Assembly: GCA_043228905.1 (NCBI GenBank)
Contig: JBHGNT010000015.1
Coordinates: 14,322,001 to 14,386,000 of the forward strand
Reading direction: 5' to 3'
Origin: Azolla caroliniana
Taxonomy: Eukaryota; Plantae; Polypodiophyta
Length of the DNA: 64,000 nucleotides
A program made the translations under genes and the position numbers. The first letter of the stretch is position 1, and each line of letters begins with the position of its first letter. Below the pieces are notes generated by a model. The model searched no databases and had not been told where the DNA came from. It was given only the letters and a program-made list of their open reading frames with translations. Shown piece by piece: positions 1 to 20,924 of this stretch.

Positions 1-186
1 TATAGTGACCTTGTAACCTTTTTGTAAGGTTGGATGTTGTATTCTTGCTTTATGAATAAAGAGTCTTTTGTGTCTCTCTCTCTCTCTCTCTCTCTGTGCA
101 ACGACCTACAAACTGTCCTACGCAGGTACTCAAAAGCAATCGAATGCTTCTTGATCTTCCGCACTGACGGCCTCTTGTCTCCAACA
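1..186 (+). repeat. copia-1 5' LTR (partial)
   Basis: Matches 5112-5299 and ends in CA two nt before the PBS. Confidence 0.95.
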
Positions 187-188
187 TC

Positions 189-200
189 TGGTATCAGAGC
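189..200 (+). other. Primer-binding site, tRNA-iMet
   Basis: TGGTATCAGAGC directly after the LTR. Confidence 0.95.
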
Positions 201-788
201 AGAGGTTCGGCCGTCATCACCGCCTGCACAGCATTCGGTTCTTCACTTCATCACGGCCTGCACAGTATTCGCGTCATTCGAAGAAAGAGAGAAGAAGAAC
301 AAAAACGAGGATTGCACCTCATCGCGTTAGATCCCCTTGCTTGGAGTAAGCCAGCAGGTCGTACTCTGTCCCTTGTGATCGTAACCGCTCGAGGTGAAAT
401 CCCCTTGTGCAACTTTGACAACAACCCAAATTCGTGCTTCATCTGGCTGATCGACATTCGGGAGGATCAGTCGGATCCGTCTCTCTCATCGCTGCAGTCA
501 ACCGAAGCAGAATCGGTCCAGATAATCGGTTTCAATAATCGGTATTCGGCACATATATCCGAAGCGAACCGGGCTCACTCCGACTCGGCAACATTCGGGA
601 AGACCAGTCGGTTCTGTCCCTCAAGTTACCGGAGTCAATTCGAGCAAGTTCAACAATACATATATCCGAAGCCGAACCAACTCGGGTTCAAATCCGACTA
701 GAACGATATCGGGTGAGCCAACCGGCTGCACTCCAACAAGGTTCGTAGTCAACTTCGAACCGAGCTTCGTCAACCGAAACCGAATTTG

Positions 789-3700
789 ATGGCATCAACA
801 TCCGGCTCGTCAGAAATGAGTCTACGAAAGTTCGATGGATCGAACTTCAACTTCTGGAAGGAACAAATGCAGGACTATCTCATAGTCAAGGGGCAAATCG
901 ATCCCATCGAAAATGAAGAACCTCCAGAAGGATACAAACCAATTGAGTGGCAGAAGCTGGACAGAATCGTCCGCGCCACGATTCGGATGCACCTATCGGA
1001 ATCGGTATATTTTACGGTGCAATCGTGTACGACAGCATTCGAACTGTGGAAAACACTGTCGGACACTTACGAAAAGAAGGTCGCCGCAACGAAGATGTTT
1101 CTGATCCGGCGCCTCTACAACTTGCGGATGAAAGAATCCGACTCGGTTCAAGCACACCTCAATGAGTACGAAAGCATAAGCTCCCAAATCTCATCACAGG
1201 GGACGGCAATCGAGGATGAACTCAGAGCAATGATACTCATGAGTAGCCTTCCCCCATCATGGGAAACTTTCGTCACAACTGTGTGCAACGCGTCAACCAC
1301 GGCTGTTAAATACTCTGAAGTCACGAGCGCAATCCTGACCGAAGCAGCTCGGAGAAAGTCTTTCGCCAAAGACTCAACAGACGACGCTTATGTAGTACAA
1401 GGTTCGACAGACCGATCGAACATACGAGGAAGAGATTCCTCACGGCCGCCGAACAATCAGCGAAGACGGAGCCAGTCACGGGATAACCGAATCTGCAATT
1501 ACTGCAAAAAACCCGGTCACATCAAAGCCGACTGCCGCGCACTCAAGAACAAGAACGACAAGTCTCAGAGATCAGACAAGAAGAGTGGCCGGCATGAGGA
1601 GATCAATTACGTCAGCTTCTCAGCGGATGTACTACCGGACGACCCGAATATACTATCAATCGAAAATCCAGTCGGATCAGAAGTTCTACTCACGACTGAA
1701 GAATCGAGCACATGGCTCTTAGATTCGGGCGCGTCATTTCACGTGACTCCTCATCGATCCCAATTTCGGCAATATACGATCCGTCACTCCGACTCAGTTC
1801 GAGTCGGCAACTCACAACACTGTGACATCATCGGAATCGGCACAGTAGAGCTCAACCTTGCAGGTGGCTCTACACTTGTACTCCACAATGTCCGACATGT
1901 ACCCGAGCTCTCAAGGCCATTGATCTCAGTCGGACAACTAGATGAAGACGGCATTCGTGCCGGTTTTTCTTCGGGAGGGTGGACACTCCACAGGGGGAAC
2001 CTCCTGCTTGCTAGAGGACCCAAGATACACTCCCTGTATCCGTTACACGTTACGCTCAGAGAGGGTAACCTGTTTTTGGTGGATATTCCTGTGTCATCAC
2101 TATGGCACAGAAGATTAGGACACCTCAGCAAGGCCGGCATCACGCACCTATCTAGACCCGGATACATCCCCAAACTCTCCTTCTCCGACCATCAATTCTG
2201 CGAGCATTGCCAGTATGGCAAACAAGTAGCCGCATCACACCCGACATCAGCACCAAGAGAAACGAGACTTCTCGATTTAGTCCACTCGGACGTCTGTGGC
2301 CCAATGCCGCATCAGTCTCTTGGCGGTGCCTCTTACTTCGTCACTTTTATTGACGATTCGACTCGAAAGGTGTGGGCTTATCCGATTCGCACCAAAGATC
2401 GGGTCTTCTCGATCTTCTCAGATTGGCTCGCTATGGTAGAAAATCAAACCGACCGAAAGCTGAGATGCTTTCGGACAGACAATGGGGGAGAGTTCAAATC
2501 CGAAGAATTCGTCAAATTCTGCCGACAACGCGGCATCCGACGTGAATTTACGGCACCACACAGTCCGGAGCAAAACGGGATTGCCGAACGCATGAATCGG
2601 ACAATCCAAGAACGGATAGTTTCCATGCTCCAACACTCCGGACTGTCGGATGGCTTCTGGGCAGAGGCTCTACTCACGGCAGTACACATAATCAATATGT
2701 CGCCAAGTAGACCTCTAGGACTTCAAATTCCTCAGGAACTATGGATCGGCAGTAAGCCGAATTACGACAAGCTGAGGATCTTCGGATGCGAGGCGTACGC
2801 CCTTATTCCGAAAGATGATCGCTGAAAACTTGCACCTCGGTCCAGGAAATGCATTTTCCTTGGATATGGATCCGACGGCGAAATGGGATACCGACTCTGG
2901 GACCCCGAACGCAGACAAATCGTTCGAAGTTCGGACGTTGTGTTCAACGAGTCGGCTATGAATCCATCAGTCGAAAAACCGATCGAAGTCCGAAGGGTAA
3001 CATTTTCCGATGTGCCGACCCTTCAAGAAGGCCCCGCTCTCAACACACGGTCAGCTTCACGGGTAGCTGAACCTTACACTACCGACTCGGACAACTCTGA
3101 CTCGGCACAGCCGAATGATTCGGTTTCGGACCATCCGACCTCGATACCCGATGCGACCAGTCCAATCATACCTCGACGATCCGAGAGACTGTCGCAACCT
3201 CCGGAGAGGTATTCTCCTGGAATTTTCTTCACCGACGCCGGCGAACCGACGTCTTACGAAGAAGCATCGACATCTGTCGATTCCGCCACCTGGCATCTGG
3301 CGATGGAGTCGGAAATGCACTCCATTCGGGCAAACAAGACTTGGGATCTGGTCGAATTACCTAGGAACCGACGTGCTCTTCCTTGCAAGTGGGTTTATCG
3401 ACTAAAAGAGACGTCTGATTCGACCACCCCAAAGTACAAGGCCAGATTAGTTGCGAAGGGCTTCCGACAACAATATGGCGTCGACTTCGACGAGATTTTT
3501 TCACCAGTGGTGAAAATGACAACCCTTCGTTTTCTACTCGGCGTAGTGGCAGCCGACAACCTGGAGCTGATTCAGCTAGATGTCAAAACAGCCTTCCTCC
3601 ATGGTGATCTTGAGGAGGAAATTTATATGGAGCAGCCAAAAGGCTTCGTGGCACCTGGCCAAGAACATCTAGTCTGCCGACTCAGGAAGAGTCTATACGG

Positions 3701-4820
3701 CCTTAAACAGGCACCACGACAATGGTACAAGAAGTTCGACGACTTCATCCAATCGATCGGCTTCTCAAAAAGCGATGAGGACCATTGTCTCTTCACCAAC
3801 ACAGCTCAAGATGGATCACCCATCTTCCTCATCATTTACGTGGACGACATGCTAATTTCTGGACGCCACGCGGGCGAACTTGCCGATCTCGTTCGGCAAC
3901 TGCGGTTGAAGTTTGCCATGAAGGACCTCGGTCCGGCACGACACATCCTTGGCATGAAAATTAGTCGGCATCGCGATGAACGACATCTTTTTTTGTCTCA
4001 GACCGACTATATCGGACGTGTCTTGGAACGCTTCAACATGCAATCCGCCAAATCTGCTTCAACCCCGCTCCCAATAAATCTTCGGCTCTCTCAGCGAGAC
4101 TGCCCGACATCCGGCCCGGAGGGGGAAGATATGAAGTCGGTACCGTATGCACCGGCAGTCGGCTCCCTTATGTACCTGATGGTCGCGACACGGCCTGACA
4201 TTTCTCACGCCGTAGGAGTCGTTAGCAGATTTATGCACAATCCTGGCCGATCGCATTGGAACGCAGTCAAGCATGTGTTCAGATATCTGGCTGGCACAAA
4301 AGACCACGGCATTCTTTTCGGTCCGAACCGAACCTCAGGCGTAGTCGGTTACACCGACTCGGACTTCGCCGGCTATATAGACAGTCGGAAATCAACAACC
4401 GGATACTGCTTCAAATTCGGCAATGGAGCAATCTCGTGGAAGTCGAAACTTCAGGAGTGCACAGCGACCTCAACGACCGAAGCAGAATATGTAGCTGCGT
4501 CCGACGCAGCAAAAGAAGCTTTGTGGCTCGGTCGGCTGGCGCACACGTTTCGACAAGTCGACCATGACTCGGCTCCAGTTGTCTACAGCGACAGTCAAGG
4601 TGCTGTTGCCTTGTCGAAAAATCCGGTTCACCACAACGCCTCCAAACATATCGACGTTCGATATCACTTCGTTCGGGACTGCGTCATTTCAGGGAAAATC
4701 GGTCTAGAGAAAATATCCACAACCGACAATGTCGCAGATGGAATGACCAAGTATCTTTCGGCAGACCGTTTTCGGTCTCTTCGGCATCAGATGGGCGTAA
4801 CGACAAACCAGTCCGGTTAG
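789..4820 (+). pseudogene. copia gag-pol polyprotein with one in-frame TGA (2823-2825)
   Basis: Zn knuckle CNYCKKPGHIKADC, protease LLDSGAS, integrase HRRLGH..CEHC and DDE, RT QLDVKTAFLHG/YVDDML, RNase H. ORFs 786-2825 and 2883-4820 share a frame, and the linker reads *KLAPRSRKCIFLGY. Confidence 0.95.
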
Positions 4821-5013
4821 AGCCGGACACAGAGCAGGATGGTTCCCGACAACCGACATCAGTTCCTTAATGATCGGCTTCAACTGTTCCGACCCGACCA
4901 GTTCGGTCTTCTGCCTTCGGACCCTGCCGACTCGAACAAAGCTGATATGTCCGAGAACCTAAGTCTATACCTGTAATCTTAGATAACCCATGTATACGCC
5001 CATTACGGGGGAG

Positions 5014-5181
5014 TGTCGAATACATGTGTATAATGGACGTATTCACACTATCCCGTTTTGGCCATTTATGTAATTAGCATAAAGGGTAGTTGCCCTAAGT
5101 CGATCACTATATATAGTGACCTTGTAACCTTTTTGTAAGGTTGGATGTTGTATTCTTGCTTTATGAATAAAGAGTCTTTTG

Positions 5182-5212
<31 letters not shown>

Positions 5213-5299
5213 AACGACCTACAAACTGTCCTACGCAGGTACTCAAAAGCAATCGAATGCTTCTTGATCTTCCGCACTGACGGCCTCTTGTCTCCAACA
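5014..5299 (+). repeat. copia-1 3' LTR (286 bp)
   Basis: TGTCGAA...CCAACA following the PPT. Confidence 0.95.
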
Positions 5300-6308
5300 A
5301 AGATCTCACGAATCAAGTAGAAGGTCGAGCGCTTCAGAGGAAAACGTGTTCCGCGGTATGCCAATTTCTTTTGGAGGAAGTATTTTGCAGGTACGGGTGC
5401 GTAGGACAAGTGATTGCGGACCGGGGAGAACTCGACTCGGACAAAGCTAGGGGATTCTTCGCCAAACACGGAGTTCGGTTATCGTTGACAACGGCATACA
5501 ATCCGGAGGCCAACGGGAAAATCGAACGAGGACATAGCCCGATCATGAAAGCACTTGCAAAGGCATGCGATGGAAAGGTGAAGGACTGGCCGCAGATGCT
5601 TCCGTATGCACTATGGGTGGCTCGGACGACGCATAGCTCCATAACCGGTTACATGCCGGCAGAACTCATGACCGGACCAGCACCGGTAATGCCGACGGAA
5701 ACCGCGATCGCAACATGGACAGTGCTACCGTGGAAGGAAGAGATGAGCCAGTAAGAACTACTAGCGGTCCGGATACGACAACTAGAGGGGAGACCGGCAG
5801 ACATAGCGGAAGCAGTACGCCGACAACAAGAAGCACGATTAAGGAACAAAAGCCGGTTCGACACAAAGCACCGACTACGACCGAGGAGGATTGAAGAAGG
5901 AGACTGGGTGATCGTCTATGACAGTAGTTTGGACCATCAACATACAACGATGCGGAAATTCGCGAAAAGGTGGTTCGGGCCATACGAGGTTCGGAAAGTC
6001 TTCGACAACGGAACGTACCGACTGTCCGAGTTGGATGGAACAATACTACGAGTGCCTATAGCCGGGAAGCGGGTGAAGATTTTCAAGAAGCGGACCGACG
6101 ACAAACCCTATGTGATCCAAGCCAAGGCCGACAACGAGGAGCAATCGGACGAAGACCACGGTGATGCGGGAAGCGAAGAAAGTGAATTACAACTCATAGT
6201 CGACATAAGGGGAGAATCGGAGGAAGCTTTGGGTAAAGACGGATATGGGGAATCGAGAACTTCGGCACATACCGGAGGATGTGCGGGTTCGGAGGGGGCG
6301 AGTGTCGT
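5300..6308 (+). mobile_element. Ty3/gypsy integrase 3' remnant with PPT and the first bases of an LTR
   Basis: DLTNQVEGRAL..VIADRGE..YNPEANGKIERGH core, one in-frame stop (5752-5754), KRWFGPYEV (GPY/F) motif. PPT GGAGGGGGCGAG at 6291-6302, then TGTCGT, the same start as the other gypsy LTRs here. Confidence 0.88.
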
Positions 6309-6900
6309 AGTGTATTCCACACACTATGTGAAAACCATAAAATAATATATCCGATTTTAGATACATATAAATAGATAAATAATATATCAAAAGAATATAT
6401 CACGTGCATAGGGCAGGATTCGAACCATGCACCTCCACGTACATAAACCCCAACTTTACCATTGTAATAACTTATCTTTAGTGTTATAAATATAGATTTA
6501 ATACGTATAAGACCTTTATTTACACATACCTTTATTAAAGGGTAAAAATCATGTATTCTTTAGAGTGTGAATATTTTATTTACACGTGACATTAAAAGTG
6601 ACTCATGCACATCTAGCGTGCATGAGCCCTATATTTAGGAAATGACAAAGCATCACATGCACATTTAGTGTGCATGGACACTTTAGGTGAAAAAGCATGA
6701 AGCCATGCTTAGCCTCTTCCATCTTTATATAAGGAGGAGAGAAATATGTATAAGGTTGTTGATTAATATAGAAGAATTGATCAATCTAATATATTCGTGG
6801 GATTCACGAATTTTGCCATCTAAATTACTCTTATAATCTAAATATTGTTTTAAAATACACTAAACTCGTGGGATTCACGAGATTGCTATCTTACTTCTCT
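6308..6900. mobile_element. AT-rich insertion, possibly non-autonomous Helitron-like remnants
   Basis: Abrupt AT-rich block separating two gypsy pieces. Degenerate hairpin near 6318-6330, two copies of the hairpin (A/C)TCGTGGGATTCACGA(A/G) near 6794 and 6866, and a B-box-like GGATTCGAACC at 6416-6426. Confidence 0.3.
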
Positions 6901-6914
6901 TCCTATTATTCATA

Positions 6915-8189
6915 ACTAGCCTTAAGTTGTATTCCTCTTCCTCCTAGTCCAAAACCTCGGCGGTTCCCACCCGACTCACGCAACGATCCAGAGCCGAAAG
7001 GCACGACAACGTCTAGGGAGGCTTCTTCGTCCGCATCCTCCGATCGCCTCCAGCTCGACTCCATAACAAGCCCTTCTTCGGCTCCGATTTTCGCCTTCAC
7101 AAGCTCGCATGCCTCCCGTATTAGCACCTCTAGGTCGAGCTCCTCCGAACCGTTTTGCGTTGAGCTCTCTTCCGGCGGTAGTGCGTACTCACTCGCCGTT
7201 CTCTCTTCTCTGCCGCTCGCGGGCCGTGTTGTGGCCGACCGCCTCGCATCATGTTGCCGGCACACCCACCGATCGAACTCATGTCGACCTCTTCCTTCTG
7301 GTTCCGTGTACCCATATGCCTCCAATAGGGCTCCCTCAAAGGACACCCACGACTCATGAGCTTCTCGTAGCTCCTTGACCTCCTTGTGCACCGATACGGC
7401 CGCCACTCGAGGAAAATACTCTAGCCGCATCGCCTCGTCTACGCCCCCTTTCGCCATCTCGGCCTTGTAGGCTCCCAAAATTTTTAGGACCTCATTCCCA
7501 TTGAACCGGCCAACTAAACCGACCACCCTTTCGACGGTTATTGAGCCGCATCTCGCTTCGCCATCTTCCGTCCGGCTTCCATCACAATCTTTGCCATCAT
7601 CTCCTCGAAGTCGAAGTCTTCTTCCATCTCCATGCTCCCTTGCCGCCCTTCACGTCGGGTTCACCAAAGATGTCGCGTTGTTACGCGCGTGCGTGTAGAA
7701 GGGGCGGGACCACGGGGATCTTGGACTAGGGAGTGGAGGAGAAAGAATAAGACACAAAATGGAAGCTTAGCTCAAGAGGAGGTGAGAAAGAATAAGACAA
7801 TAACGTAGAATGGACGGGCAAGATGCTCAACAAGTTAGCTTAAGGGAAAACAAACACTTTACAATGGTGGCCGCCATGACCGCACCAAACGACTATATCA
7901 AAAACCCTAAGGGAAAACCCAAGAAGAAAACCCTAATCAAAACCCTAAAACCGAATAGGAAACCCTCGACCTAAGTGGTATGCCTCTCTCCCTCAAAATA
8001 GGCAACCCCCTCATAAGTGACCCCTCCCTTCCTTTTATAGCCCAAGGAGGGAGGGACCTTACAATGTGGGATAAAATTTCCCCTCTTCTTTCTACACACC
8101 ACTTCCTAGTATACACGTGCACATGTTGCACACCACCGATTTTCCTATTCCACCTCGGTTTTCGCCTATGGACGAAAATCTTCACGACA
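6915..8189 (-). mobile_element. Ty3/gypsy 5' portion: LTR (7671-8189), tRNA-Trp PBS, decayed gag
   Basis: LTR TGTCGTG..CGCGACA on the minus strand. PBS TGGTGAACCCGACGTGAA at 7649-7666. ORF 6906-7526 (VGRFNGNEV..YKAEM) is homologous to the gag at 60173. Confidence 0.85.
7649..7666 (-). other. Primer-binding site complementary to tRNA-Trp
   Basis: 18 nt matching the 3' end of plant tRNA-Trp(CCA) (..TTCACGTCGGGTTCACCA, recalled), 4 nt from the LTR end. Confidence 0.85.
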
Positions 8190-8193
8190 CCGT

Positions 8194-8745
8194 ACTTTAT
8201 CATGCTTTTGTTCCATGTGTATAGATGAAGCTTGGGATAAATGCATCAACCTATCAATCGTCGAGCCCTGGAAGCTGTAGAAGCTTTAGCCTAAACGACA
8301 AGATGATATTGAAGAGGATGCGCATTCAAACAATATTGTATACTACAACTAACATCAAGACTTGGCAATTTTATTGGAAGTTGGAGATCATTTTGCAGTA
8401 CTCAAATCTCCTCAGAATGAAGATTTAGAAGACTACTACATTGTGGTGTGCAAGCAAGGCAAGACATTATTGAAAGAAGTGGTGAGGGATGGCTGGGGCA
8501 ACAATTTCAACCTTGGTGAGTCTGTCGTGTATGGAAACTATTATGCAAAGTTGCCACAGTTCAAGAACACATATGCATTACTAAAAGAAGCACCGATCAC
8601 AATAATCTACGTTGATACCATTCTTGCAATCAAATTCAATATGACTCAAGCAAAGCACAAGGTTAAGGGATACAACATTGTCTACAAGGTTCCCCAAGAG
8701 GTTCATGAGCACATATTAGGGGAGGTCTCTCTATTTAATGATTGA
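8194..8745 (+). pseudogene. C-terminal remnant of a putative DNA-transposon transposase
   Basis: One frame reads TLSCFCSMCIDEAWDKCIN..VEPWKL*KL*P..*HQDLAILLEVGDHFAV..GWGNNF..YYAK.., with a CxCxxC-x6-C motif. It is cut by the gypsy LTR at 8189 and the catalytic core is not in the window. The family assignment comes from recalled similarity only. Confidence 0.5.
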
Positions 8746-9169: not shown

Positions 9170-9452
9170 CTTCGAAGTATCAATATACATATTAGTACTA
9201 ACGCAAGTATCAATATACATATTAGTTTAGTACTAATGTCAATTGCAGGTATGTCAATTGCAAGTATTAAGTAATACATAGCAATCTCCCAATGTCAATT
9301 GCAAGTATTAAGTAATACATAGTGGTCTATCAATATACATATTAGTTTAGTATTAATGTCAATTGCAAGTATGTCAATTGCAAGTATTAAGTAATACATA
9401 GCAATCTCCCAATGTCAATTGCAAGTATTAAGTAATACATAGTGGTCTCCCA
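9170..9452. repeat. AT-rich tandem duplication (~120-bp units built from ATGTCAATTGCAAGTATTAAGTAATACATAG)
   Basis: Direct repeats visible between the two convergent genes. Confidence 0.8.
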
Positions 9453-9923
9453 AAGTATCTCAGTTAGACGGATACATACCTCTGATGTAAAGTTCGGTTG
9501 CATGACAGTATATACCAGTCTTCTAAATCTTCATCTAGTATAACAAACTGTATATAACATCTCAGTTAACAATATAGAATTTTATTTGTAATCAACACAA
9601 TCATGGCTGCATGGGAGTGTACCTGGGAGTGTGATAAATTCGTACCTCCCTCACCAAAGATCATTTCAGAATTAGCAATTGAATACATTTTCATTCTCTG
9701 CAATTAGCAATATAGAATTTCACACTGGTATAACTACTGGATTTTGGTATACCAAATAGTTCAATTTCAGACATCACTAACAGTTCAACTCAAGTTCAAG
9801 TACAATCGAAAGACACTGGTATAACTATTTCAGATAAATGAGACTGTATTTTGGTATACCAAATAGTTCAATTTCTCACATCACTAATAGTTCAACTAAA
9901 GTTCAAGTACAATCGAAAGACAA

Positions 9924-12900
9924 TCAGGCACTAGAGGGCAATTTGGCTGATCTTGTAATGCACTTGTTGTTGGTGCCAGTTTTTTCTGATTTTACATTCT
10001 TCTTTATCTTAAAGCCTTTAGGTATCAACTGACTAAGTGGCACTTCATCATCAGAGGCATCAGAGACAGGCGTGGATGCACGGGCACCTTGTACTAGTGG
10101 CAAACTTGAGAGAGCAACTGTGTTTTCTGCAACTGCAATGCTTGTACACACATCCACAAAGGTACTGTCGATAAAAAAATTATCACTCATCTCCTAAATG
10201 TGGGCTATTTTAGTACTCATGTTGTTGCTAGTATGCTCAATCTCAGTACAATTAGGCTCATGTATGTGGGCTACAGCAATACTCTTGGCGAACTCTTGGC
10301 TGGTCATAGTCACCTCATTCTTAAGACCACTGTGCTCTCCTTCTTGGGTCAACTCCTCTTGTACGATGGCTATCACCTCATTCTTAAGAGAACCGTGCTC
10401 CCCTTCTTGGGTGGTCTTTATTGCCTGGTCCTCATGGGTGATGCTAGTAGGCTCCCCTTCATTAGTAACGATGTTCTTTCCACAATCCTCATGGGATTCT
10501 TTAGACACTACTAGCACATTCTCAGTACAATCAGGCTCCTCTTCAGTACTAGCGATGTTCTTTCCCCAATCCTCATGGGATTCTTTAGACACTACAAATA
10601 CATTCTCAGTACAATCAATCTTCTCTTCAATACTTGCCATATTCTTTCCACACTCCTCATGGGCTTCTTTAGACAAATTATTGTTTGTACATGCCAGCTG
10701 CTCTTCAAATATAAATGCTTCGTTTTTCTCACAGTCCTCATGTGTGGAAGATGTGCTTCCAAAGTCTGCCTCCGTGCAAAGGTTAATCCCAGAATCTGAC
10801 TCTGCACTTGTGCTCCATATAGTTCCCGATTCACTTGATTGCAATTGGGAATCAGACTGCTCTTGTAAACCTAAATAATTGGATTCCAAAGAATATTAGT
10901 ATCAACTCACATACTCAAAATTTTGCAAACATACCAACAACAATGAACGTAGGGTTAAGAGCCACTTTTTTACCTATTGTTACATCGTCCTACTGTACAG
11001 CCGTAGATACCCCATTGCAAGTGGTAGGCTCGGTCATCTTCTCCACAACATCGAAGTGCTCAACAGGGTTGTGTTGATCTATTGAATGCACCAAAAGCAA
11101 CACTATCATAGGGTTGTTATGATCTAAATCATTGTTTTCAAAAACCGGCTTTTGACGTGTACCTGGGAGTGTGATAAATTTGTCTTCACGATTAGGTTCT
11201 AGACTCGTATCTCCTTCACCAAAGATCATTTCGTCATCAGCTAGTAACACAAGTACATGGTATTAGACAATGCATTAGGTTGACAACTCTCCGGACAGGT
11301 GAGAACATATATGACTCACCATTGCATTCAACTTTGCCTTTCTTGTCCTTTCCATACAACATTCTTGCAGCATTCCTCTTCTTAGTTGGCTCTATTTCTA
11401 AAGAAATTAGGCATTCAACACTTTCTCAAATGAGAATTAAGATATGTTGGCAAAATTTGTGTTACCTGGATTGTTTTGATGTTAACCGGAGCTTGGGGAA
11501 TTTGTTTGTAGAAGCATATGTTCCACTGCTCCAATGGCCCTTCTCATACATTCATCTTCATCATAAAACTCATAGGTTATTGGTAATGATGGTCCCTGAA
11601 CCTTGGAATGTTCAGCAGATACCGAGGGTTTAGGCACAAGGGGCGGTTGTTCCATTACCTTCCCTGGCGTGGAGTTGCTTGACACTACAACATTCATTGC
11701 AAGAAACCAGAAAACCTTCAAGGTTAGTACCGTGATATAAAATATTACACAACTAGTACTAATCGTGAACAATGTACTACTCACTTAGTTCCCAATTTAC
11801 ACAAGTAGTACTAATCATGAACAATGTACTATTAGTACCGTGATATAAAATATTACACAACTAGTACTAATCGTGAACAATGTACTACTCACTTAGTTCC
11901 TAATTTACACAAGTAGTACTAATCATGAACAATGTACTACTAACTTAATCAAATTACACAAGGAGTACTAATCATGAACAATGTACCACTCACTTAGTTG
12001 CCAAATTACACAAATAGTACTAATCATGAACAATGTACTAATCCTGAACAATATACTATTCACTTAGTTCCTAAATTATTGAACTAGTACTAATAAGGAA
12101 CAGAAGTAGTACTAATAATGAACAATGTACTGCTCACTTAGTTCCCAATTTACACAAGTAGTACTAATCATGCACAATGCACTACTCACTTAGTTCCCAA
12201 ATTACACAAGGAGTACTAATCCTGAACAATGTACTACTCACTTAGTTCCCAAATTACAAAACTAGTACTAATCACGAGCAATGTACTACTCACTTAGTTC
12301 CCAATTTACAAAACTAGTACTAATCATGAACAATGTACTACTCGCTAAGTATTAATCGTCAACAATGTACAAGTATAGTGTGTACTAACACTAGTACTAG
12401 GCATGTTGTAATATAGATTGGACTAACATCTAATCCAACAAATGTAGATTGGATTTTAGTACTAACGTGGTATTTTGCACACAAGTAATACTAAACGTGA
12501 TATATGTGTTCTACACACCTAATTACATAACTTGTACTAATTACATCAATAGTATTAATCTTGAACAGTATTAGTACTAAACGTGATATGTGTTTGACAC
12601 ACCTCATTTCCAAATTACACAAACTGTACTAATATTCAGCAATTTACTATACCCCTTGTTCCCAAATTACATAACTAGTACTAATTCCCAAGTTACACAA
12701 ACAATACTAACAGTCAACAGTGTACTACAAGTATAGTGTCTACTAAACTAGTACTAGGCAAGTTGCAATATAGATTGGACGATGTTGTACCTGGTTCCCT
12801 TTTAGTACTAATTCTGGAAAATATCCCTTCAACTACACATACCAATTATATATTAAGAGTACTGCCAATACTAACCCACATAATTAGGGTTCCACATATT

Positions 12901-14367
12901 AGTTGTTAGAGATACACTAATACTAATCCATTGTTCTCCTAAATTTGAAGTATGAATTGTGGCGTACACTAGTTCTAATCCAAATGTAAATTGACATCAT
13001 ATAATACAAACAATAGAATAGTAGAGCCACATACCGTACGGGTGTACTTTTAAACCCCAAGCATAGTACCACTCAGCCGCAATTGTAGTTTTACAGTCCA
13101 TACATGTATTCTCTTTCTCAAAATGATACTTAACACATAGCACATGATATGTGTGCAAGCACGGTGTAATCACAACATCCATAGCCTCCAGCTTGAATCC
13201 GAGGCCACAAAATATACACCTGGCAGATTGCAAACACAAGTTATAATATATTAGCTAATATGATATTTATACCACAGAAGTAGAAATAAATAACTTTTAA
13301 AGCCAATACCGTGATATAGCTATACTAGTAATGGTACTTTCCATACCACTTGGGTGCTCAATTACATATGGATACAAAGTTTCAAAACCTTTTTGTTTTA
13401 AATCCTGCATCAAGCACGCAAGGTTCTCGGAATGCAACTTTAAAGCTGACAACTTATTATCTATTTCGGAATGTGCATTCCTACAAGTATCAAGGTCTCT
13501 CATCTGTGAACCTAATTGAGTGCCCATATTGTTTAGCTCTTTCTTCAACTCCTCTTTCAACACCTCACTTTCTGAATTTTGGATTGTCGATGCAATCCAT
13601 TCATATGTAGTCTTTAATGAAGAGAATTTCTTTTCTGCATGTATCTCAGCTGATTTAATTGCTTCCGAATCAGCAAGTAGTGCTTGTATTCTTGAGCTCA
13701 TAGATGCTATGCAACTGGCCATCATCTGTTCATTCTTTTCAGTCATTGTGGCCCATACCTTTGCAGATTGAACTTGGTGGACAGGTGTTGTAGCCGGAAT
13801 ATCCACATGAGAGGTTCCCGATGACTTCAAGCCAGTGTTGGTACTAGAGGACCCTTTATAATGTTCTGATCGGTGCCAATTAAAATCTTCCCAATCTACG
13901 TCGATGCCACCCTGAACTTCACATGCAAATGCACGTGCAAAAACAGTACCCACCTCATTGTTATAGATTTGATTTGTATCATAAACATGTTCATATCTCG
14001 TCTTCAATAAGTTGACATATTCCCTCTTCAATCCACTTATGTGGAATCCTCTCCTTGTATCGGGATGTGCTGACCCCCAGGTTTTTATCAACCACTCTCT
14101 CAACTCAGGATAAACTTCAGGTCGTGCTCGAAGGAAATAACTCCATCCGAGAGGTGTGTCTCGAATGATGGAGTGGTACATCTTCTTTCTCTGTGTTGAT
14201 GAATTCATCACCCTTTCTCTTGTGGGTGTCTTCTTGCTTTCTTTGAGAGGTGTCCTTTTTCCTTCCTTCACTGGTGTCTTCACTTTCTCTTTCATCAATG
14301 TCTTCTTTATGGGTGTCCTTCTCGTCATTGTCCTAGTCATCACTATTCTCGTTGAATGAATATGCAT
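9924..14367 (-). pseudogene. 8-exon RING-H2 finger gene (~903 codons, 3 premature stops), probably transposon-borne
   Basis: Exons 14367-13310, 13219-13035, 12832-12791, 11684-11466, 11397-11320, 11240-11163, 11078-10974, 10870-9924, all GT-AG and in phase (2712 nt). RING-H2 CIFC..CLHTYHVLC..CMDC. Stops at 11482, 10990 and 10194. Confidence 0.75.
11740..12365. repeat. Intronic minisatellite, ~52-bp unit (TAGTACTAATCATGAACAATGTACTACTCACTTAGTTCCCAAATTACACAA)
   Basis: About 11-12 degenerate head-to-tail copies, with further decayed copies to ~12760. Confidence 0.9.
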
Positions 14368-14733
14368 GTACTAGAATAAAACTCATCAAATTACCATCAA
14401 CACATAGCAAGTAATCACATTGCATGTACAAGCCATGTCAAACACACAAAAACCCTAAATAGTCGGAAGAAAACTCATCCATGTCTAACACATACAAATT
14501 AAAAACAGACCGACAGGAAACACAGAGAAAACGAAAACATACCAACAAAACGAAAACATAGCAACTCATCATAGTCAACTCCATCTAAGTTGCATGTACA
14601 AACCATGTCAAACACACAACCACCCTAAACAGTCGGAAGAAAACTCATCCATGTCAAACACATACAAATTAAAAACATACAAATAGGAAACACAGAGAAA
14701 ATGAAAACATACCAGTTGGGCATGCAACACATA

Positions 14734-15341
14734 TGTTGAGCAATCGACGCTCCGATTAACCTTCACCGCTCGGCCACAACCGAGTAAGCACGAATCAATG
14801 CAGCAGAAAATAGGAACCACAGAGAAAGAACACGAATACACAGGGATTAACGTGGAAAACCCTAGACGGGAAAAACCACGGGAGTACAAGACTCCGAACC
14901 AAAACTATGCACAGAGAAGTATACAATGGCGAGCTGCAAGGCGACGACCTTGAGCTCGCTGTCCTCGCCACAGGCGGCGGAAATACACAGAGGCGTCGAC
15001 CTCTTCCTCTCTCACGCTCTATCTCTCTCTCTCACGGCTACTCTCTCTTCACTCCTCTTGAGTGGAAAAACAGAAAAAAATAAGAAGCAACAACAAAACT
15101 GTTTGCCCTAAGTCATATTTATACACATATGACTTTAGGGCTATTTACAACTATAGCCTCAAGGGCCCTTAGCAAACATATTCACGGATATGTCCCCGCA
15201 TCCGGATCTCTCTTCGGGTGCATTCGTCATCCGGCTCCGAAGCCGGGGTCTTCATCATCCGGTTCCGAAACCGAAACCGGGCTCGTCGGCATTCATCTCC
15301 AACATCCGACCATCCCATCCGAAGGGACCGTAATCCCAACA
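14734..15341 (-). repeat. copia-2 3' LTR
   Basis: TG..CA termini, adjacent to the PPT, near-identical to 19456-20063. Confidence 0.97.
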
Positions 15342-15351
15342 AACTCCCCCT

Positions 15352-18300
15352 TCACTTCGGCATGGGATGTCTCTCCAATCCGATCCTCTTCCGGCATGCT
15401 TCCAGCTTGTCGGGTGTGAGCACCTTGGTCAGCATATCCGACCCATTCTCGTCCGTGTGGACCTTCGTCAGCACGAACTCCTTGTCTTCTATCCTTTCCC
15501 GGATCCAGTGATATCTTCGCTGGATGTGCTTCGTCCGGGAGTGATAGGCCGCGTTCTTCGCAAGGTGGATTGCACTCTGACTGTCGCAGTAGAGTCGGTA
15601 CTCCTCCTGCCGGATACCGAGCTCTCTAATGAAGTCCTTCATCCATATTATTTCCTTGCTGGCTTCAACAGCCGCCATGTACTCCGCCTCCGTGGTTGAC
15701 AGCGCAACCGTCTTCTGCAGCCTCGACTGCCATGAAACAGCTCCCCCTGCATACGTCATCACATACCCTAATGTGGACCGGCTGGTATCTGCATCAGCCG
15801 ACATATCCGAATCGGTGAAGCCGTCGAGTTCGGGCTTACCGGAGCCGAATCGGAGGCACACGTTTGTCGTGCCCTTCAGGTATCGGAGTATCCACTTGAC
15901 CGCGTTCCAGTGCTCTTTGCCGGGATTGCTCATGTACCGGCTCACCACCCCAACTGCATATCCGATGTCCGGTCGGGTACACACCATTGCGTACATCAAG
16001 CTCCCGACGGCAGAGGCATATGGTACTTTCATCATGTCCTCCTTCTCAGCCTTTGTCTTGGGGCTCTGCTTGCTGGACAGCTTGCAGTTTGCCGGGAGTG
16101 TTGACCCGACCGGTCTTGCTTCCGACATGTTGAACCGGTGAAGCACCTTTGTCACGTACTTCTCCTGTGACAGCCACAACTGCTTCTTCTTCCGGTCCCG
16201 GATGATGTGCATCCCTAGTATTTGCCTCGCCGGACCCAGGTCCTTCATTGAGAAGGTTCGGTGAAGAGCCTTCTTCAGCATCCGAATCTTGACCTGGTCC
16301 CGTCCGACGATCAACATGTCGTCCACGTACAGGAGGAGTATTAGAAAGTCTCCTCCTTCGAACTTCTTCACAAACACGCAGTGGTCGGACTGCGTTTTGA
16401 GGTACCCTTCGTCGGTCATGAAAGAGTCGAACTTCCGGTACCATTGCCGGGGAGCCTGCTTCAATCCGTAAAGGCTCTTCTTCAACCGGCATACCAGGTG
16501 CTCCTTCCCTTTCTTCTCGAATCCTTCCGGTTGCTGCATGTAGATCTCTTCCTCGAGGTCACCGTGAAGGAATGTCGTCTTCACGTCCATCTGTTCTACC
16601 TCGAGGTCCATGCTTGCCGCTATGCTCAGCACCGTCCGGATGGAGGTCATCTTCACTACCGGGGCAAATATCTCGTCGAAGTCGACGCCCTTCTTCTGCT
16701 GAAACCCCTTCACCACGATCCTGGCTTTGTATCTCGGGGGGTTTCCGGCATCTCCCGGTTTCAGCTTGAACACCCACTTGTTACGGAGTGCCCGTTTTCC
16801 TTTCGGCAACTCCACAAGTTCATATGTGTGGTTCTCATGCAGGGAATCCATCTCCTCTTGCATGGCACTTAACCACCTGCGGCTCTGGGTGTCATGCTTT
16901 GCTTCTTCAAAGCTCTCCGGCTCCCCCTCGTCGGTTAGCAACACGTGCTCTGGTTCCGGAAATCTCCGGGGGGCCCTTCTCTCTCTTAGAGGATATCTCC
17001 GTTCCGGAGCTTCGGTAACCGGTTCTTCCGATTCTTCTTCATCCGAATCCATTTCGGGATCGGGGCCGGTTCCGGTATCATTTTCATCTTCCTCGGCCGG
17101 TTCTGTTTCTTCACCGTCTTCGGCCGGATCCTCGAGTGCTAACCGGTCCCTTGCCGGTCGGGACTGCTCCTCGTAGAGTTGATCCTCACCGGTCGACTTG
17201 GAGCTCTTCATCTTCTTCTCCGACTCCCAGTCGGCGAGTGTCTTGTCCTCCATGAAGATGATATCTCGACTCCTGAATATCTTCTTGTCGACCGGGTCCC
17301 ATACTCGGTAGCCGAACTCGTCATCGCCGTAACCGAGGAATATGCATGGCCGGGTCTTTGGATCTAGCTTTCCTCTCCGGTCCTTTGCCACATGCTCGTA
17401 TGCGAGACACCCGAACACCTTCAGATGCCGGTAGGATACTTCCCTACCGGTCCACACTCTCTGCGGCGTGTCTCCGTCCAAAGGTACTGAGGGTGATCTG
17501 TTTATCACGTATGTCGCCGTCGACATTGCCTCAGCCCAAAACCCCTTGGGTAATTTCGCATGCGCCAGCATACTCCGGACCCTCTCCATTATGGTCTGGT
17601 TCATCCTCTCGGCCAGCCCGTTCAGTTCCGGCGTCTTCGGCACAGTAAACTCGAGCCGGATTCCCTTCGAGCGACAGTACTCCGCGAACTGCCCCCGGTA
17701 TTCCCCTCCGTTATCCGCTCGTATCGCTTTCAGCTTCTTGCCGGATTCCCTTTCCACTCTCGCGTGGAGTTCTTTGAAGACGCACAACACTTGGTCCTTT
17801 GTCTTCAACGATGCCGTCCACAGCTTCCGACTGTGATCATCAATGAATGTTACGAAGTACTGGGCTCCGCCATGTGACTTCGTTTCTACCTGACACACAT
17901 CAGTGTGCACCAACTCCAATGGTGCGCTACGTCTCGTCGGTGGCCTTGAATGGAAGGAGGTTCGGTTCTGCTTACCGGCCAGGCAATCGGTGCACTTCTC
18001 TAGGTGCACATGCTTCACTGGAATAAGGTTGTCTTCTGCAAGCCTCTTCATCCCCTTCTCACTCATGTGGCACAGTCTCTTGTGCCACAGCTCACCGGCA
18101 GTGTCGGCTGCCACGTTCAACTCTTCCGGACACAGCCAGGCATTCATAAGGTACAGTGTGTTGACTTTCCGGGCCCGAGCCACTATCAGGCTCCCCTTGC
18201 TGAACTTCATTACACCGTTCCGGATGCTACCTGTGTAGCCTTCATCGTCTAGCCTCCCGGCCGAAATCAGGTTCAATCGAACCTCCGGAACGTGTCGGAC

Positions 18301-19425
18301 ATCCTTCAACAGCATTTTGCATCCGGTCGGGGTTGTCAACCACACGTCTCCTATGCCGGCAATCCGGCACGTACCTTCATTTCCCATCCGAACACAGCCA
18401 AGCTCACCGGCTGTGTAGGATGAGAAGTATCTTCTCTCCGGGGTCAGGTGGAACGATGCTCCGGAATCGACCACCCAGGTCGTCTCATCGCCGGCAATGT
18501 TTAGTTCACCTTCTTCAGTGATGAGCATGATCTCCTCTTCACTTGCCGCGAGTGCCGTCGTTCCTTTCCGGTCCTGCCCTCGCCGATCCGAACCATTCCG
18601 GTCCGTGGCTCCCCGGTAAGTCCCGTTCCGTTCCGAAGACTTCTTCGAATCGGTGTCGTTGGCTCCGTTGTCTTTTCGGTAATGCCGACAATTCTTTCGG
18701 AAGTGCCCCGGCTTCCCACAGTGGAAGCATGTGGGCCTTCCTCTTGACTGCGACCGGGTCCCCGACTTCTCCCGTCTTTGCGGACTCCGGTTCCATTGTC
18801 TTCCCCGTTCCGATTCGGTAAGCAGCGCCTTCGAGTCGGAGGCCGGTTCTTTATCTCTCCGACGCGCTTCTTCGTTCAAAATACTTGTCTTCACCGTTTG
18901 TAGGGACAAGTTATCTTCGGTGCAGGAGGTGCTGAGAGTCACCACCAAGTTCTCCCAGCTTTCTGGCAATGTACACATCAGAATGATGGCTTGCATTGCA
19001 TCCTCCAGCGGGAACTTGATCGCCGCAAGTTGGTTCACGAATCCCATGAACGTGCTTACGTGTTCCACCATACTCTCGCCGTCCCGGTACTTGAGGTTCA
19101 CTATCTTCCTCATCAGGGAGGTCCGGTTCAAGGCATTTTTCCTCTCGTAGAGGCCCGACAGCTTCCGCCACATCTCATATGCGTTGGTGTCGTTCGCCAC
19201 ATGTTGTAGAACGCTCACGTCTACGTATTGCCGAATGGTTGCAACGGCTTTCCGGTTCAGAAGCCTCCATTCCGACTCAAGTACCCCCTTCGGTATTTCC
19301 GACCTGTCAATCGGTTCGTACAGGTCCCGAACAATCAGAAGATCCTCCATCTTGATCTTCCAGTCGGCGTAATTCTGTGCATTCAGCACCATCATCCCCG
19401 GCTGCCCGCTGCCGCCGCCTTCCAT
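15352..19425 (-). CDS. copia gag-pol polyprotein (1357 aa)
   Basis: ATG 16 nt after the PBS. CFHCGKPGHFRKNC, VVDSGAS, HKRLCH..CTDC, DDE integrase, YVDDML, RNase H. No stops or frameshifts. Confidence 0.95.
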   Translation of the reverse strand: MEGGGSGQPGMMVLNAQNYADWKIKMEDLLIVRDLYEPIDRSEIPKGVLESEWRLLNRKAVATIRQYVDVSVLQHVANDTNAYEMWRKLSGLYERKNALNRTSLMRKIVNLKYRDGESMVEHVSTFMGFVNQLAAIKFPLEDAMQAIILMCTLPESWENLVVTLSTSCTEDNLSLQTVKTSILNEEARRRDKEPASDSKALLTESERGRQWNRSPQRREKSGTRSQSRGRPTCFHCGKPGHFRKNCRHYRKDNGANDTDSKKSSERNGTYRGATDRNGSDRRGQDRKGTTALAASEEEIMLITEEGELNIAGDETTWVVDSGASFHLTPERRYFSSYTAGELGCVRMGNEGTCRIAGIGDVWLTTPTGCKMLLKDVRHVPEVRLNLISAGRLDDEGYTGSIRNGVMKFSKGSLIVARARKVNTLYLMNAWLCPEELNVAADTAGELWHKRLCHMSEKGMKRLAEDNLIPVKHVHLEKCTDCLAGKQNRTSFHSRPPTRRSAPLELVHTDVCQVETKSHGGAQYFVTFIDDHSRKLWTASLKTKDQVLCVFKELHARVERESGKKLKAIRADNGGEYRGQFAEYCRSKGIRLEFTVPKTPELNGLAERMNQTIMERVRSMLAHAKLPKGFWAEAMSTATYVINRSPSVPLDGDTPQRVWTGREVSYRHLKVFGCLAYEHVAKDRRGKLDPKTRPCIFLGYGDDEFGYRVWDPVDKKIFRSRDIIFMEDKTLADWESEKKMKSSKSTGEDQLYEEQSRPARDRLALEDPAEDGEETEPAEEDENDTGTGPDPEMDSDEEESEEPVTEAPERRYPLRERRAPRRFPEPEHVLLTDEGEPESFEEAKHDTQSRRWLSAMQEEMDSLHENHTYELVELPKGKRALRNKWVFKLKPGDAGNPPRYKARIVVKGFQQKKGVDFDEIFAPVVKMTSIRTVLSIAASMDLEVEQMDVKTTFLHGDLEEEIYMQQPEGFEKKGKEHLVCRLKKSLYGLKQAPRQWYRKFDSFMTDEGYLKTQSDHCVFVKKFEGGDFLILLLYVDDMLIVGRDQVKIRMLKKALHRTFSMKDLGPARQILGMHIIRDRKKKQLWLSQEKYVTKVLHRFNMSEARPVGSTLPANCKLSSKQSPKTKAEKEDMMKVPYASAVGSLMYAMVCTRPDIGYAVGVVSRYMSNPGKEHWNAVKWILRYLKGTTNVCLRFGSGKPELDGFTDSDMSADADTSRSTLGYVMTYAGGAVSWQSRLQKTVALSTTEAEYMAAVEASKEIIWMKDFIRELGIRQEEYRLYCDSQSAIHLAKNAAYHSRTKHIQRRYHWIRERIEDKEFVLTKVHTDENGSDMLTKVLTPDKLEACRKRIGLERHPMPK

Positions 19426-19455
19426 TTTCTGCAGCAGCCCGCTCTGATACCAGTT

Positions 19456-20063
19456 TGTTGAGCAATCGACGCTCCGATTAACCTTCACCGCTCGGCCACA
19501 ACCGAGTAAGCACGAATCAATGCAGCAGAAAATAGGAACCACAGAGAAAGAACACGAATACATAGGGATTAACGTGGAAAACCCTAGACGGGAAAAACCA
19601 CGGGAGTACAAGACTCCGAACCAAAACTATGCACAGAGAAGTATACAATGGCGAGCTGCAAGGCAACGACCTTGAGCTCGCTGTCCTCGCCACAGGCGGC
19701 GGAAATACACAGAGGCGTCGACCTCTTCCTCTCTCACGCTCTATCTCTCTCTCTCACGGCTGCTCTCTCTTCACTCCTCTTGAGTGGAAAAACAGAAAAA
19801 AATAAGAAGCAACAACAAAACTGTTTGCCCTAAGTCATATTTATACACATATGACTTTAGGGCTATTTACAACTATAGCCTCAAGGGCCCTTAGCAAACA
19901 TATTCACGGATATGTCCCCGCATCCGGATCTCTCTTCGGGTGCATTCGTCATCCGGCTCCGAAGCCGGGGTCTTCATCATCCGGTTCCGAAACCGAAACC
20001 GGGCTCGTCGGCATTCATCTCCAACATCCGACCATCCCATCCGAAGGGACCGTAATCCCAACA
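19456..20063 (-). repeat. copia-2 5' LTR
   Basis: Adjacent to the PBS TGGTATCAGAGC. Confidence 0.97.
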
Positions 20064-20924
20064 ACATAGACTATGAATAATCAAAACCTAAAAAAGCCCA
20101 TACACATACAAATTAAAAACAGACGGACAGGAAACAAAGAGAAAACGATAACATACCAATTGGAGGCAGATGGAGCCAAGGTCGAAGGCAGAGGTACCAC
20201 ACCTTCGGAGCACACCAAGCCTTCAAAATCACCTATATGCAAGAGATTGCTGACGAGGTTGCTACAGAGGAGACAAACAAGCATTAACAGAGGAGACAAA
20301 CGAGCATACACAAGGAAAGCAAATCAACAACAAGAACATCAATCAGGGGAAACAGAAATCTCTGCATATACAGAGACAGAGATCGAACCTGGCACAGAGG
20401 GAACACAACAACAACTACGCGGGGAAACAGAGAATCGAAGGTGGAGTGAGAGAGAGAAACAGAAAGAAAGAAAGAAACAGAGATTCAAAGGTGGAGTGAG
20501 AGAGAGAGAGAGATAGGTAATAGATATGTGTCGTCTTTCTAACTTTCTGCATCTGTCTGTCTGACAGCTTCGAGACAGAAGAGAGAAAGAGAGAGATTGA
20601 GAGAGACACAAAGAGAGAGAGAGAGACTGAGAGAGAGACTGACCAACTATCACATTCCAAACCTTCTCCAGGTGTGCTTTCATACAACTCTACCTAGGAG
20701 AATGAAATTACAATTAATGTATTAAATACGGCCTTGGGACATTTCGAGTGTGACGATATTATCTTTGTACATTTGAGTGTGACGTAATGAATTTGTTATT
20801 TGAAATTGAACACCATTCAATAGATGATAATTTTTTTATTTTCAATTTTTAATGTTTATTTTCTTCCTCGATTTAGTACTAAATTTTTGGCCAAAAGTTG
20901 GTACATCGTAGCATGCTTCGACCC

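What the first reader, a model, noticed from the sequence alone, without database searches (positions are those of the whole stretch)
9924..14367. Hidden 8-exon RING-H2 E3-ligase-like gene inside a probable DNA transposon
Seen in sequence: scattered short ORFs join through canonical GT-AG junctions into one 904-codon frame. It runs from a basic TPxK-repeat N-terminus through an unrecognised ~90-aa globular domain (GWSYFLRARP..YEHVY..FARAFACE..VDWEDF), a coiled coil and a RING-H2 finger to a long acidic, repeat-rich tail. About the first 495 codons, including the RING, are still open. It lies tail-to-tail with a transposase-like remnant and inside a sharp element boundary at 20924. Established: RING-H2 domains are ubiquitin E3 ligases, and some plant transposons encode accessory anti-silencing proteins (VANC of VANDAL MULEs). 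Inference: this may be an undescribed transposon accessory E3 ligase acting on chromatin or silencing factors.
Basis: partly seen in the sequence, partly recalled or inferred. Interest (0 to 1): 0.8.

Follow-up and report, generated by a model that had tools for sequence, protein, structure and literature searches.

The report
Fern transposon carrying conserved RING protein
This is a broken copy of a many-copy cut-and-paste jumping gene, likely from a fern, whose relatives keep a second gene, predicted to be spliced, that encodes an unknown domain, a coiled coil and a RING finger; its protein likely binds a palindrome repeated inside the element and would tag nearby proteins with ubiquitin to keep the element active.

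Summary
The gene is real and belongs to a transposon. Seven of the eight exons recur, with GT/AG at the same places, in a sister family about 60% identical in protein. The 42-nt third exon is unsupported. This copy is dead: three stops in the gene, three in the transposase remnant, and a retroelement inserted at each side. Modelled relatives stay open and are under purifying selection (dN/dS 0.39 overall; RING 0.17, the same as the transposase piece). The partner resembles Sola2 transposases by motif and lies tail-to-tail in the 3 of 20 loci that hold both genes. The end at 20924 recurs to the base in three loci with unrelated flanks; the other end, TIRs and TSD were not seen. New here: all 19 TAGTACTA palindromes of the window lie inside the element (intron, intergenic, subterminal), a VANC-like layout kept in both families. 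The N-terminal domain folds confidently and matched nothing searched. E3 activity, DNA binding, anti-silencing and splicing in RNA are untested, and the RING lacks two usual E2-contact residues. The scan noted a similar Sola2 + RING design elsewhere in this genome (e1-10618503).

The parts
8191..8745 (+). 3' part of the last exon of a Sola2-like transposase; three in-frame stops; cut on the left by a Gypsy-like LTR element
   Evidence: 95% identical to P0007 over the open 130 aa, 87% over residues 89-285; stops seen; other copies read otherwise at 8278, 8287, 8350
9193..9235 (.). two TAGTACTA palindromes in the intergenic repeats between the two 3' ends
   Evidence: L003 has four AGTACT in its intergenic region
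9924..10870 (-). last exon: acidic tail with 84-nt repeats, stop at 10196-10194, basic C-terminal end
   Evidence: acceptor AG at the same place in L003, L007, L010
   Evidence: counterpart of 171 nt in L003; acceptor reads AC in L007
11163..11240 (-). exon 6 (78 nt)
   Evidence: same length and GT/AG in L003; sites canonical in L007, L010
11320..11391 (-). exon 5 (72 nt), basic, nuclear-localisation-like (inference)
   Evidence: same length, 79% nt identity in L003
11466..11684 (-). exon 4 (219 nt), stop at 11484-11482
   Evidence: same length in L003; no stop there in L003, L007, L010
11685..13034 (-). long intron with a 52-bp tandem array and 16 TAGTACTA palindromes
   Evidence: arrays with the same core in L002, L003, L007, L009, L010
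   Evidence: no counterpart in L003, L007, L010; acceptor AA in L002, L012
13035..13219 (-). exon 2: RING-H2 finger
   Evidence: dN/dS 0.17
13310..14367 (-). exon 1: basic TPxK repeats, unknown domain (13846-14175), helical hairpin; conserved start likely at 14328
14734..20063 (-). intact copia LTR retrotransposon inserted upstream of the gene; not part of the element
   Evidence: 608-bp LTRs with 3 mismatches, 5-bp TSD; Pfam gag/rve/RVT_2; contigs show the empty site (table 7)
20069..20924 (-). 5' leader of the gene and end of the element
   Evidence: matches upstream regions of L001, L002, L013
20845..20924 (-). element terminus beginning GGG, with one subterminal TAGTACTA at 20874-20881; inserted in a copia RT region
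   Evidence: same first base in L005, L006, L007 with unrelated flanks; RVT_2 beyond 20924

Best explanation
This is a dead copy of a two-gene, likely Sola2-type DNA transposon whose second gene, predicted to be spliced from seven exons, encodes a conserved accessory protein that likely binds the AGTACT palindromes of its own element and would use its RING finger to ubiquitinate nearby chromatin or silencing proteins. Shown: element membership, multi-copy status, conserved exon structure, purifying selection, domain order, and palindromes confined to the element. Inferred: nuclear location and DNA contact by the basic S/TPxK repeats and the unknown domain; oligomerisation through the coil; E2 recruitment by the RING; and local loss of silencing, with the tandem arrays raising motif density as in VANDAL/VANC.
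For: Linkage: 3 of 20 loci hold both genes, all tail-to-tail. The other 17 are too short, end inside the gene, or are broken off in exon 1. Four contig lengths are shared between the 15 listed members of the sister-family gene cluster and the 15 of the sister transposase cluster, and none across families (indirect). Terminus shared to the base in 3 loci with unrelated flanks. Open models: L003 737 codons, L007 804, L010 524. dN/dS window vs L003 is 0.39 (CI 0.31-0.49); RING 0.17 (0.05-0.40); transposase piece 0.17 (0.08-0.32). Domain + coil + RING-H2 occur in one ORF in P0085 and P0088. TAGTACTA: 19 of 19 window matches lie inside the element, 0.66 expected. The intron arrays of the two families share only short cores at the motif (best window-vs-L003 hit 20 nt), and AGTACTAA is their only common frequent 8-mer. 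Intron, intergenic and terminal placement matches VANC21 targets (PMC5735166, passages). S/TPxK/R motifs occur in 5 of 6 homologues checked.
Against: The RING lacks the helix Trp and loop-2 Pro usual in E2-binding RINGs (recalled; sequences) and scores under Pfam's cut-off. The unknown domain is not basic overall (net -1). P0085 has no S/TPxK motif. Motif counts are inflated by tandem duplication, and a 20-nt shared core shows the arrays may descend from one unit. Extra conservation of motif positions is modest (p 0.001-0.09 over six comparisons), and neighbouring hexamers are as conserved. AGTACTAAC contains a branch-point-like TACTAAC (recalled). Two loci (L001, L016) show broken gene copies with no transposase behind them.
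Confidence: 0.42

Rival explanations
1. Transposition cofactor. The protein binds the palindromes and helps or regulates its own transposase, as TnpA does for CACTA TnpD. The RING is structural or controls transposase turnover, and silencing is not the target.
For: One palindrome sits about 45 bp inside the terminus in the window, L005, L006 and L007. AGTACT sites also lie upstream of the transposase last exon in L002. Gene and transposase pair by family. A TnpA-TnpD complex model is described in PMC13547354 (passages). A RING is fused to the transposase in RAG1 and Chapaev (PMC4411706, passages).
Against: 16 of 19 palindromes are deep inside an intron, far from the end. The Sola2 alignment read (PMC3627910 file 10) lists transposases only, and I recall no obligatory second gene in Sola2.
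Confidence: 0.25
2. Diffusible host-directed E3. The protein does not read DNA. The unknown domain is a substrate-binding module that sends a host silencing or defence factor for degradation, and the palindromes are bound by the transposase or are a by-product of tandem amplification.
For: The domain is net neutral. The RING is the most constrained part. Motif conservation is only modest. Transposon-borne ubiquitin-pathway enzymes exist, e.g. Helitron VTD deubiquitinases (PMC9741609, passages).
Against: The motif core is retained in otherwise poorly alignable arrays inside this very gene in both families. The N-terminus is basic with S/TPxK repeats.
Confidence: 0.22
3. A captured host gene that rides along without serving the element (Pack-type cargo).
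For: P0085 and P0088 are remote homologues of unknown context that could be host genes. L001 has an unrelated MYB-like gene upstream.
Against: dN/dS is well below 1 between element families at dS about 0.8, and also within a family. No annotated full-length host gene was found among 13 profile hits in 1.84 billion representatives.
Confidence: 0.08
4. Chance joining of short ORFs, or an ordinary single-copy host gene next to a transposon.
For: No expression data exist for it. The window copy has three stops.
Against: Conserved junctions and exon lengths, single-ORF homologues, shared terminus with different flanks, and 1,455-2,548 contigs laid per DNA run on the stretch.
Confidence: 0.03

Closest known systems
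Sola2 DNA transposons (Repbase group; alignment in PMC3627910 Additional file 10, read whole)
   Same: Relatives of the window's transposase carry the W-x-F...HGKG..DG catalytic region and the following GT...H motif (P0007). An Adiantum relative (P0012) has the upstream F..L.P...C.C..H motifs. The end begins GGG (5'-GRG for Sola2 is recalled).
   Different: A spliced RING accessory gene lies tail-to-tail with the transposase. The only Sola2 passengers in the passages read were Fanzor1 proteins. TIR pair and 4-bp TSD not seen.
VANDAL elements with VANC anti-silencing proteins (PMC5735166, passages)
   Same: An accessory gene with conserved domains and a variable repeat-rich region; a short motif arrayed by tandem repeats in introns, intergenic and terminal non-coding DNA.
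   Different: VANDAL is a MULE (recalled). VANC has DUF1985/DUF287, neither of which matched here; I recall no RING in VANC. VANC21's motif is non-palindromic and family-specific, whereas this one is palindromic and shared by both families. No binding or demethylation is shown here.
RAG1 and Chapaev transposases with a RING finger (PMC4411706, passages)
   Same: A RING finger encoded by a DNA transposon lineage; the RAG1 RING has ubiquitin ligase activity.
   Different: There the RING is fused to the transposase. Here it is in a separate gene with another domain and a coil. That 2015 paper states the RING finger is encoded in no other known transposable elements.
Sola1-1_Ec32 of Ectocarpus with a ParB-methyltransferase accessory gene (PMC12477816, passages)
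   Same: A Sola element with an accessory gene on the strand opposite the transposase, proposed to act on its own DNA.
   Different: Sola1, with a methyltransferase instead of a RING.
Helitron-encoded VTD deubiquitinases (PMC9741609, passages)
   Same: A ubiquitin-pathway module carried by a transposon.
   Different: A deubiquitinase inside RepHel of a rolling-circle element.

Membership tests
Sola2 DNA transposon | Sola2-type DDD transposase motifs | tested here: met
   By-eye match of P0007 and P0012 to the Sola2 alignment. The window remnant starts downstream of the HGKG motif and is tied in by 87-95% identity to P0007. No profile score was run. An Atlas neighbour cluster carried DUF7869 on 64% of members.
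Sola2 DNA transposon | Terminus 5'-GRG (recalled) | tested here: met
   GGG in the window, L005 and L007; AGG in L006. The criterion itself is recalled; one search found no paper stating it.
Sola2 DNA transposon | Terminal inverted repeats at both ends | not testable with these tools
   Only one end is in the window and in the 20 loci; no genome is held.
Sola2 DNA transposon | 4-bp target site duplication (PMC3627910) | not testable with these tools
   Needs both ends. The four flanks seen differ and share no fixed TTAA, TA or TWA site.
RING-H2 domain | C3H2C3 ligand spacing | tested here: met
   All eight ligands in the window, L003, L005 and L010; lost in the deleted copy L002; last pair spaced x3 in P0085 and P0088.
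RING-H2 domain | Pfam zf-RING_2 curated cut-off | tested here: not met
   23.5 bits against 27.3; P0085 reaches the zf-RING_11 cut-off, 27.3 against 27.
RING E3 ubiquitin ligase | E2-docking residues: loop-1 Ile/Val, helix Trp, loop-2 Pro, basic linchpin (recalled) | tested here: inconclusive
   Ile/Val/Leu and linchpin Lys are present; Trp and Pro are absent in the window family and the sister family.
RING E3 ubiquitin ligase | E2-dependent ubiquitin transfer | not testable with these tools
   Needs an in vitro assay.
VANC anti-silencing protein | DUF1985/DUF287 domains | tested here: not met
   No such Pfam hit for any piece or alignment member scanned.
VANC anti-silencing protein | Short motif arrayed in non-coding regions of its own element | tested here: met
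   19 of 19 TAGTACTA inside the element; intron, intergenic and subterminal.
VANC anti-silencing protein | Binds the motif and lowers DNA methylation of family copies | not testable with these tools
   Needs EMSA, ChIP and bisulfite data.
CACTA/EnSpm with TnpA | CACTA/CACTG termini (recalled) | tested here: not met
   The terminus begins GGG.
Any solved fold (N-terminal domain) | Structural match to the AF2 model | tested here: inconclusive
   Best VIA Z 3.0 (rmsd 3.5, 63 aligned) among 48,161 chains; no Foldseek E<=0.001 in PDB or BFVD.

The most novel reading that the evidence does not exclude
Sola2 transposons of seed-free plants encode a self-addressed ubiquitin ligase. A DNA-reading domain of undescribed fold docks on AGTACT palindrome arrays inside the element, and the RING ubiquitinates silencing chromatin there. 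This would be anti-silencing by ubiquitin, evolved independently of VANC.
Probability: 0.3. Interest if true: 0.85.

Novelty: new variant of a known kind. Interest (0 to 1): 0.6.

Why it matters
How transposon accessory proteins counter silencing is open even for VANC. This family supplies a predicted enzymatic module (RING), a candidate target motif, a small confidently folding domain with no match in the libraries searched, and open-frame relatives. That makes the idea directly testable by EMSA, ubiquitination assay and methylome. A stand-alone RING gene kept under transposase-level selection in a DNA transposon was not found in seven literature searches (open-licence library only, Repbase Reports and the original Sola paper not seen). 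If true, it could also give a sequence-targeted ubiquitination module.

Tried and rejected
RNA: no RNA holder listed. Of the four runs laid, three were guessed to be RNA and one was of unknown kind. Their contigs run through introns, and none of the 8 joints listed matches a predicted intron. This is no evidence either way, as they may be DNA. Homodimer prediction of residues 62-335: no verdict, score 0.00. Fold searches with the whole exon-1 model returned only generic coiled coils. With the domain alone, nothing above Z 3.0 or below E 0.8, which does not prove a new fold. No PDB sequence match for the domain profile; one chance-level row for the transposase profile. ESM Atlas gave no usable hit for the domain. 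The transposase was not found in viral or prokaryote collections. No genome is held, so copy number, the left end and the TSD could not be counted. The stop at codon 496 was not among the 40 variant rows shown (366 hidden), so its state in the window's own family is unknown. My first L003 model had a one-base error in exon 7, corrected; only exon-length and exon-1 figures are taken. Intron identities (0.60-0.71) come from a gapped global aligner on AT-rich DNA and were not used. Rejected: MULE/VANDAL, CACTA, Harbinger and Sola3 assignments (terminus, flanks, motifs), and the 42-nt exon. Searches of earlier findings by sequence or relatives found nothing.
Full report
Observation. Exon 2 encodes a C3H2C3 RING-H2 (Pfam zf-RING_2 E 6.8e-5, below cut-off). 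AlphaFold2 on exon 1 gives a disordered N-terminus, a compact domain and a long helical hairpin. The domain alone folds at pLDDT 87.5, pTM 0.82 from 8 sequences.

Is the splicing real? A metagenome scan gave 20 loci, 12 of which span at least one junction. In the sister family (60-63% identical in exon 1), L003 has GT/AG at all 12 homologous sites; I set that model by eye, and window probes alone located 7 of the 12. L007 has 11 of 12 canonical (one AC). L010 has 10 of 10 located. L004, L005, L006 and L009 have 3 of 3, L008 2 of 2, L011 and L015 1 of 1. L002 and L012, which are internally deleted copies, keep the donors but read AA at the exon-2 acceptor. Exons 2, 4, 5 and 6 have the same lengths in window and L003. 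The 42-nt third exon has no counterpart in the sister family and contains an array palindrome, so I drop it. The shared start is the ATG at 14328, which gives 7 exons and 875 codons. Independently, a profile search of 1.84 billion representatives returned 13 hits. Two of them, P0085 and P0088, carry domain, coil and RING-H2 in one ORF (hhalign probability 97.8, E 9.5e-13). All support for splicing is comparative.

This copy is dead; the family is not. In four DNA runs, 1,455-2,548 contigs lie on the stretch. At two of the three gene stops (10196, 10990) and at three transposase stops, all or nearly all depth shows a sense letter in 4 of 4 runs (40 of 406 rows shown). Modelled relatives are open for 737 (L003, up to a C-run that shifts the frame), 804 (L007) and 524 (L010) codons. 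Pairwise Nei-Gojobori dN/dS against L003 is 0.39 (CI 0.31-0.49, 708 codons): domain 0.41, coil 0.22, RING 0.17, tail 0.63, and 0.17 for the transposase piece. These values include the neutral decay of the window copy. A young copia element (14734-20063) sits upstream, and a Gypsy-like element cuts the transposase at 8190 (weak Pfam SH3_Tf2-1 hit).

It is a transposon. The remnant at 8191-8745 is 87-95% identical to P0007. The only named relatives of either gene are Adiantum nelumboides hypothetical proteins, so the host is likely a fern. P0007 and P0012 match the Sola2 alignment of PMC3627910 (Additional file 10 read whole) by eye at the HGKG..DG region and upstream motifs. Three of 20 loci (L002, L003, L012) hold both genes, all tail-to-tail. 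L007 and L010 end inside the last exon, L001 and L016 break off in exon 1, and the rest are too short. Four exact contig lengths are shared between the listed members of the sister gene cluster and the sister transposase cluster, and none across families, which is indirect support. The end at 20924 recurs at the same base in L005, L006 and L007 with unrelated flanks; in the window the flank is copia RT. The other end lies outside the window, so TIRs and TSD are untested.

All 19 TAGTACTA palindromes in the 64 kb lie in the element, against 0.66 expected: 16 in the long intron, 2 intergenic, 1 subterminal. L003, L007 and L010 have 14-18 AGTACT each against about 1-2 expected. The intron arrays of the two families share only short cores at the motif (best window-vs-L003 hit 20 nt), and AGTACTAA is the only 8-mer frequent in all three introns compared. 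Within families, motif positions are more conserved than other aligned positions (91-98% against 81-87%; p 0.0012-0.093 in six non-independent comparisons), but some neighbouring hexamers do as well, and tandem copies are not independent. VANC21 binds a short motif arrayed by tandem repeats in introns, intergenic and terminal regions of its element (PMC5735166, passages). The layout is alike, but the protein has no VANC domain.

Mechanism. I favour a self-addressed regulator (0.42): the basic S/TPxK repeats and the unknown domain bind the arrays, the coil oligomerises, and the RING recruits an E2 to modify local chromatin or silencing proteins. Every step after 'conserved accessory gene with a palindrome array' (about 0.9) is inferred. 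Against it, the domain is net neutral, the RING lacks the usual Trp and Pro (recalled features), and the subterminal palindrome could be read by the transposase. Rivals are a TnpA-like transposition cofactor (0.25), a diffusible host-directed E3 (0.22), neutral cargo (0.08) and artefact or host gene (0.03).

Literature. I read passages of PMC5735166, PMC4411706, PMC9741609, PMC12477816, PMC13547354, PMC5751038, PMC10294476, PMC4455052 and PMC3627910 (plus its file 10 whole and search hits in other supplements; files 13-14 not searched). The original Sola paper was not seen, and its 5'-GRG rule is recalled. PMC4411706 (2015) says RING fingers were known only in the RAG1/Chapaev lineage of transposons. 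Searches found no Sola2 RING accessory gene; subscription journals and Repbase Reports are not covered. The scan itself noted a complete 9.9-kb Sola2-like element with a RING cargo gene and palindrome arrays elsewhere in this genome (e1-10618503). It showed no sequence look-alike to this one, and I did not verify it. It pointed me to the Sola2 alignment, and my motif count came after reading it.

Verdict. A real, conserved accessory gene of a likely Sola2 family, broken in this copy; a new variant of a known kind, with an unmatched domain and a testable but unproven ubiquitin-based mechanism. Interest 0.6.

Noticed in passing
window 14734-20063: Intact 1,424-codon copia element with 608-bp LTRs differing at 3 sites and a 5-bp TSD; a recent insertion.
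   Followed up: yes
window 9617-9670: Shortened duplicate of exon 6 and its donor (11155-11235) in the intergenic region behind the gene.
   Followed up: partly
window 14414-14733 and 20034-20158: A repeated unit of 125-170 bp ending in a GTATGT donor-like site upstream of the ATG; possible 5' non-coding exons, also present in L001, L002, L013, L017.
   Followed up: partly
L002 3095-3145 and L012: A deletion derivative joins the intron array directly to the transposase last exon, at a palindrome; possible non-autonomous subfamily.
   Followed up: partly
L001 1-1540: An R2R3-MYB-like gene lies upstream in place of the element end (recognised by eye from the ORF).
   Followed up: no
P0085, P0088: Single-ORF remote homologues with domain, longer coil and RING but no acidic tail; genomic context unknown.
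   Followed up: partly
window 20874-20904: A second palindrome (TTTTGGCCAAAA) lies beside the subterminal TAGTACTA and is invariant in the four termini aligned.
   Followed up: no
window 1-8190 and 20925-64000: Nested LTR retroelements fill much of the window; two AGTACT at 63475 and 63529 lie in a 54-bp tandem repeat.
   Followed up: no
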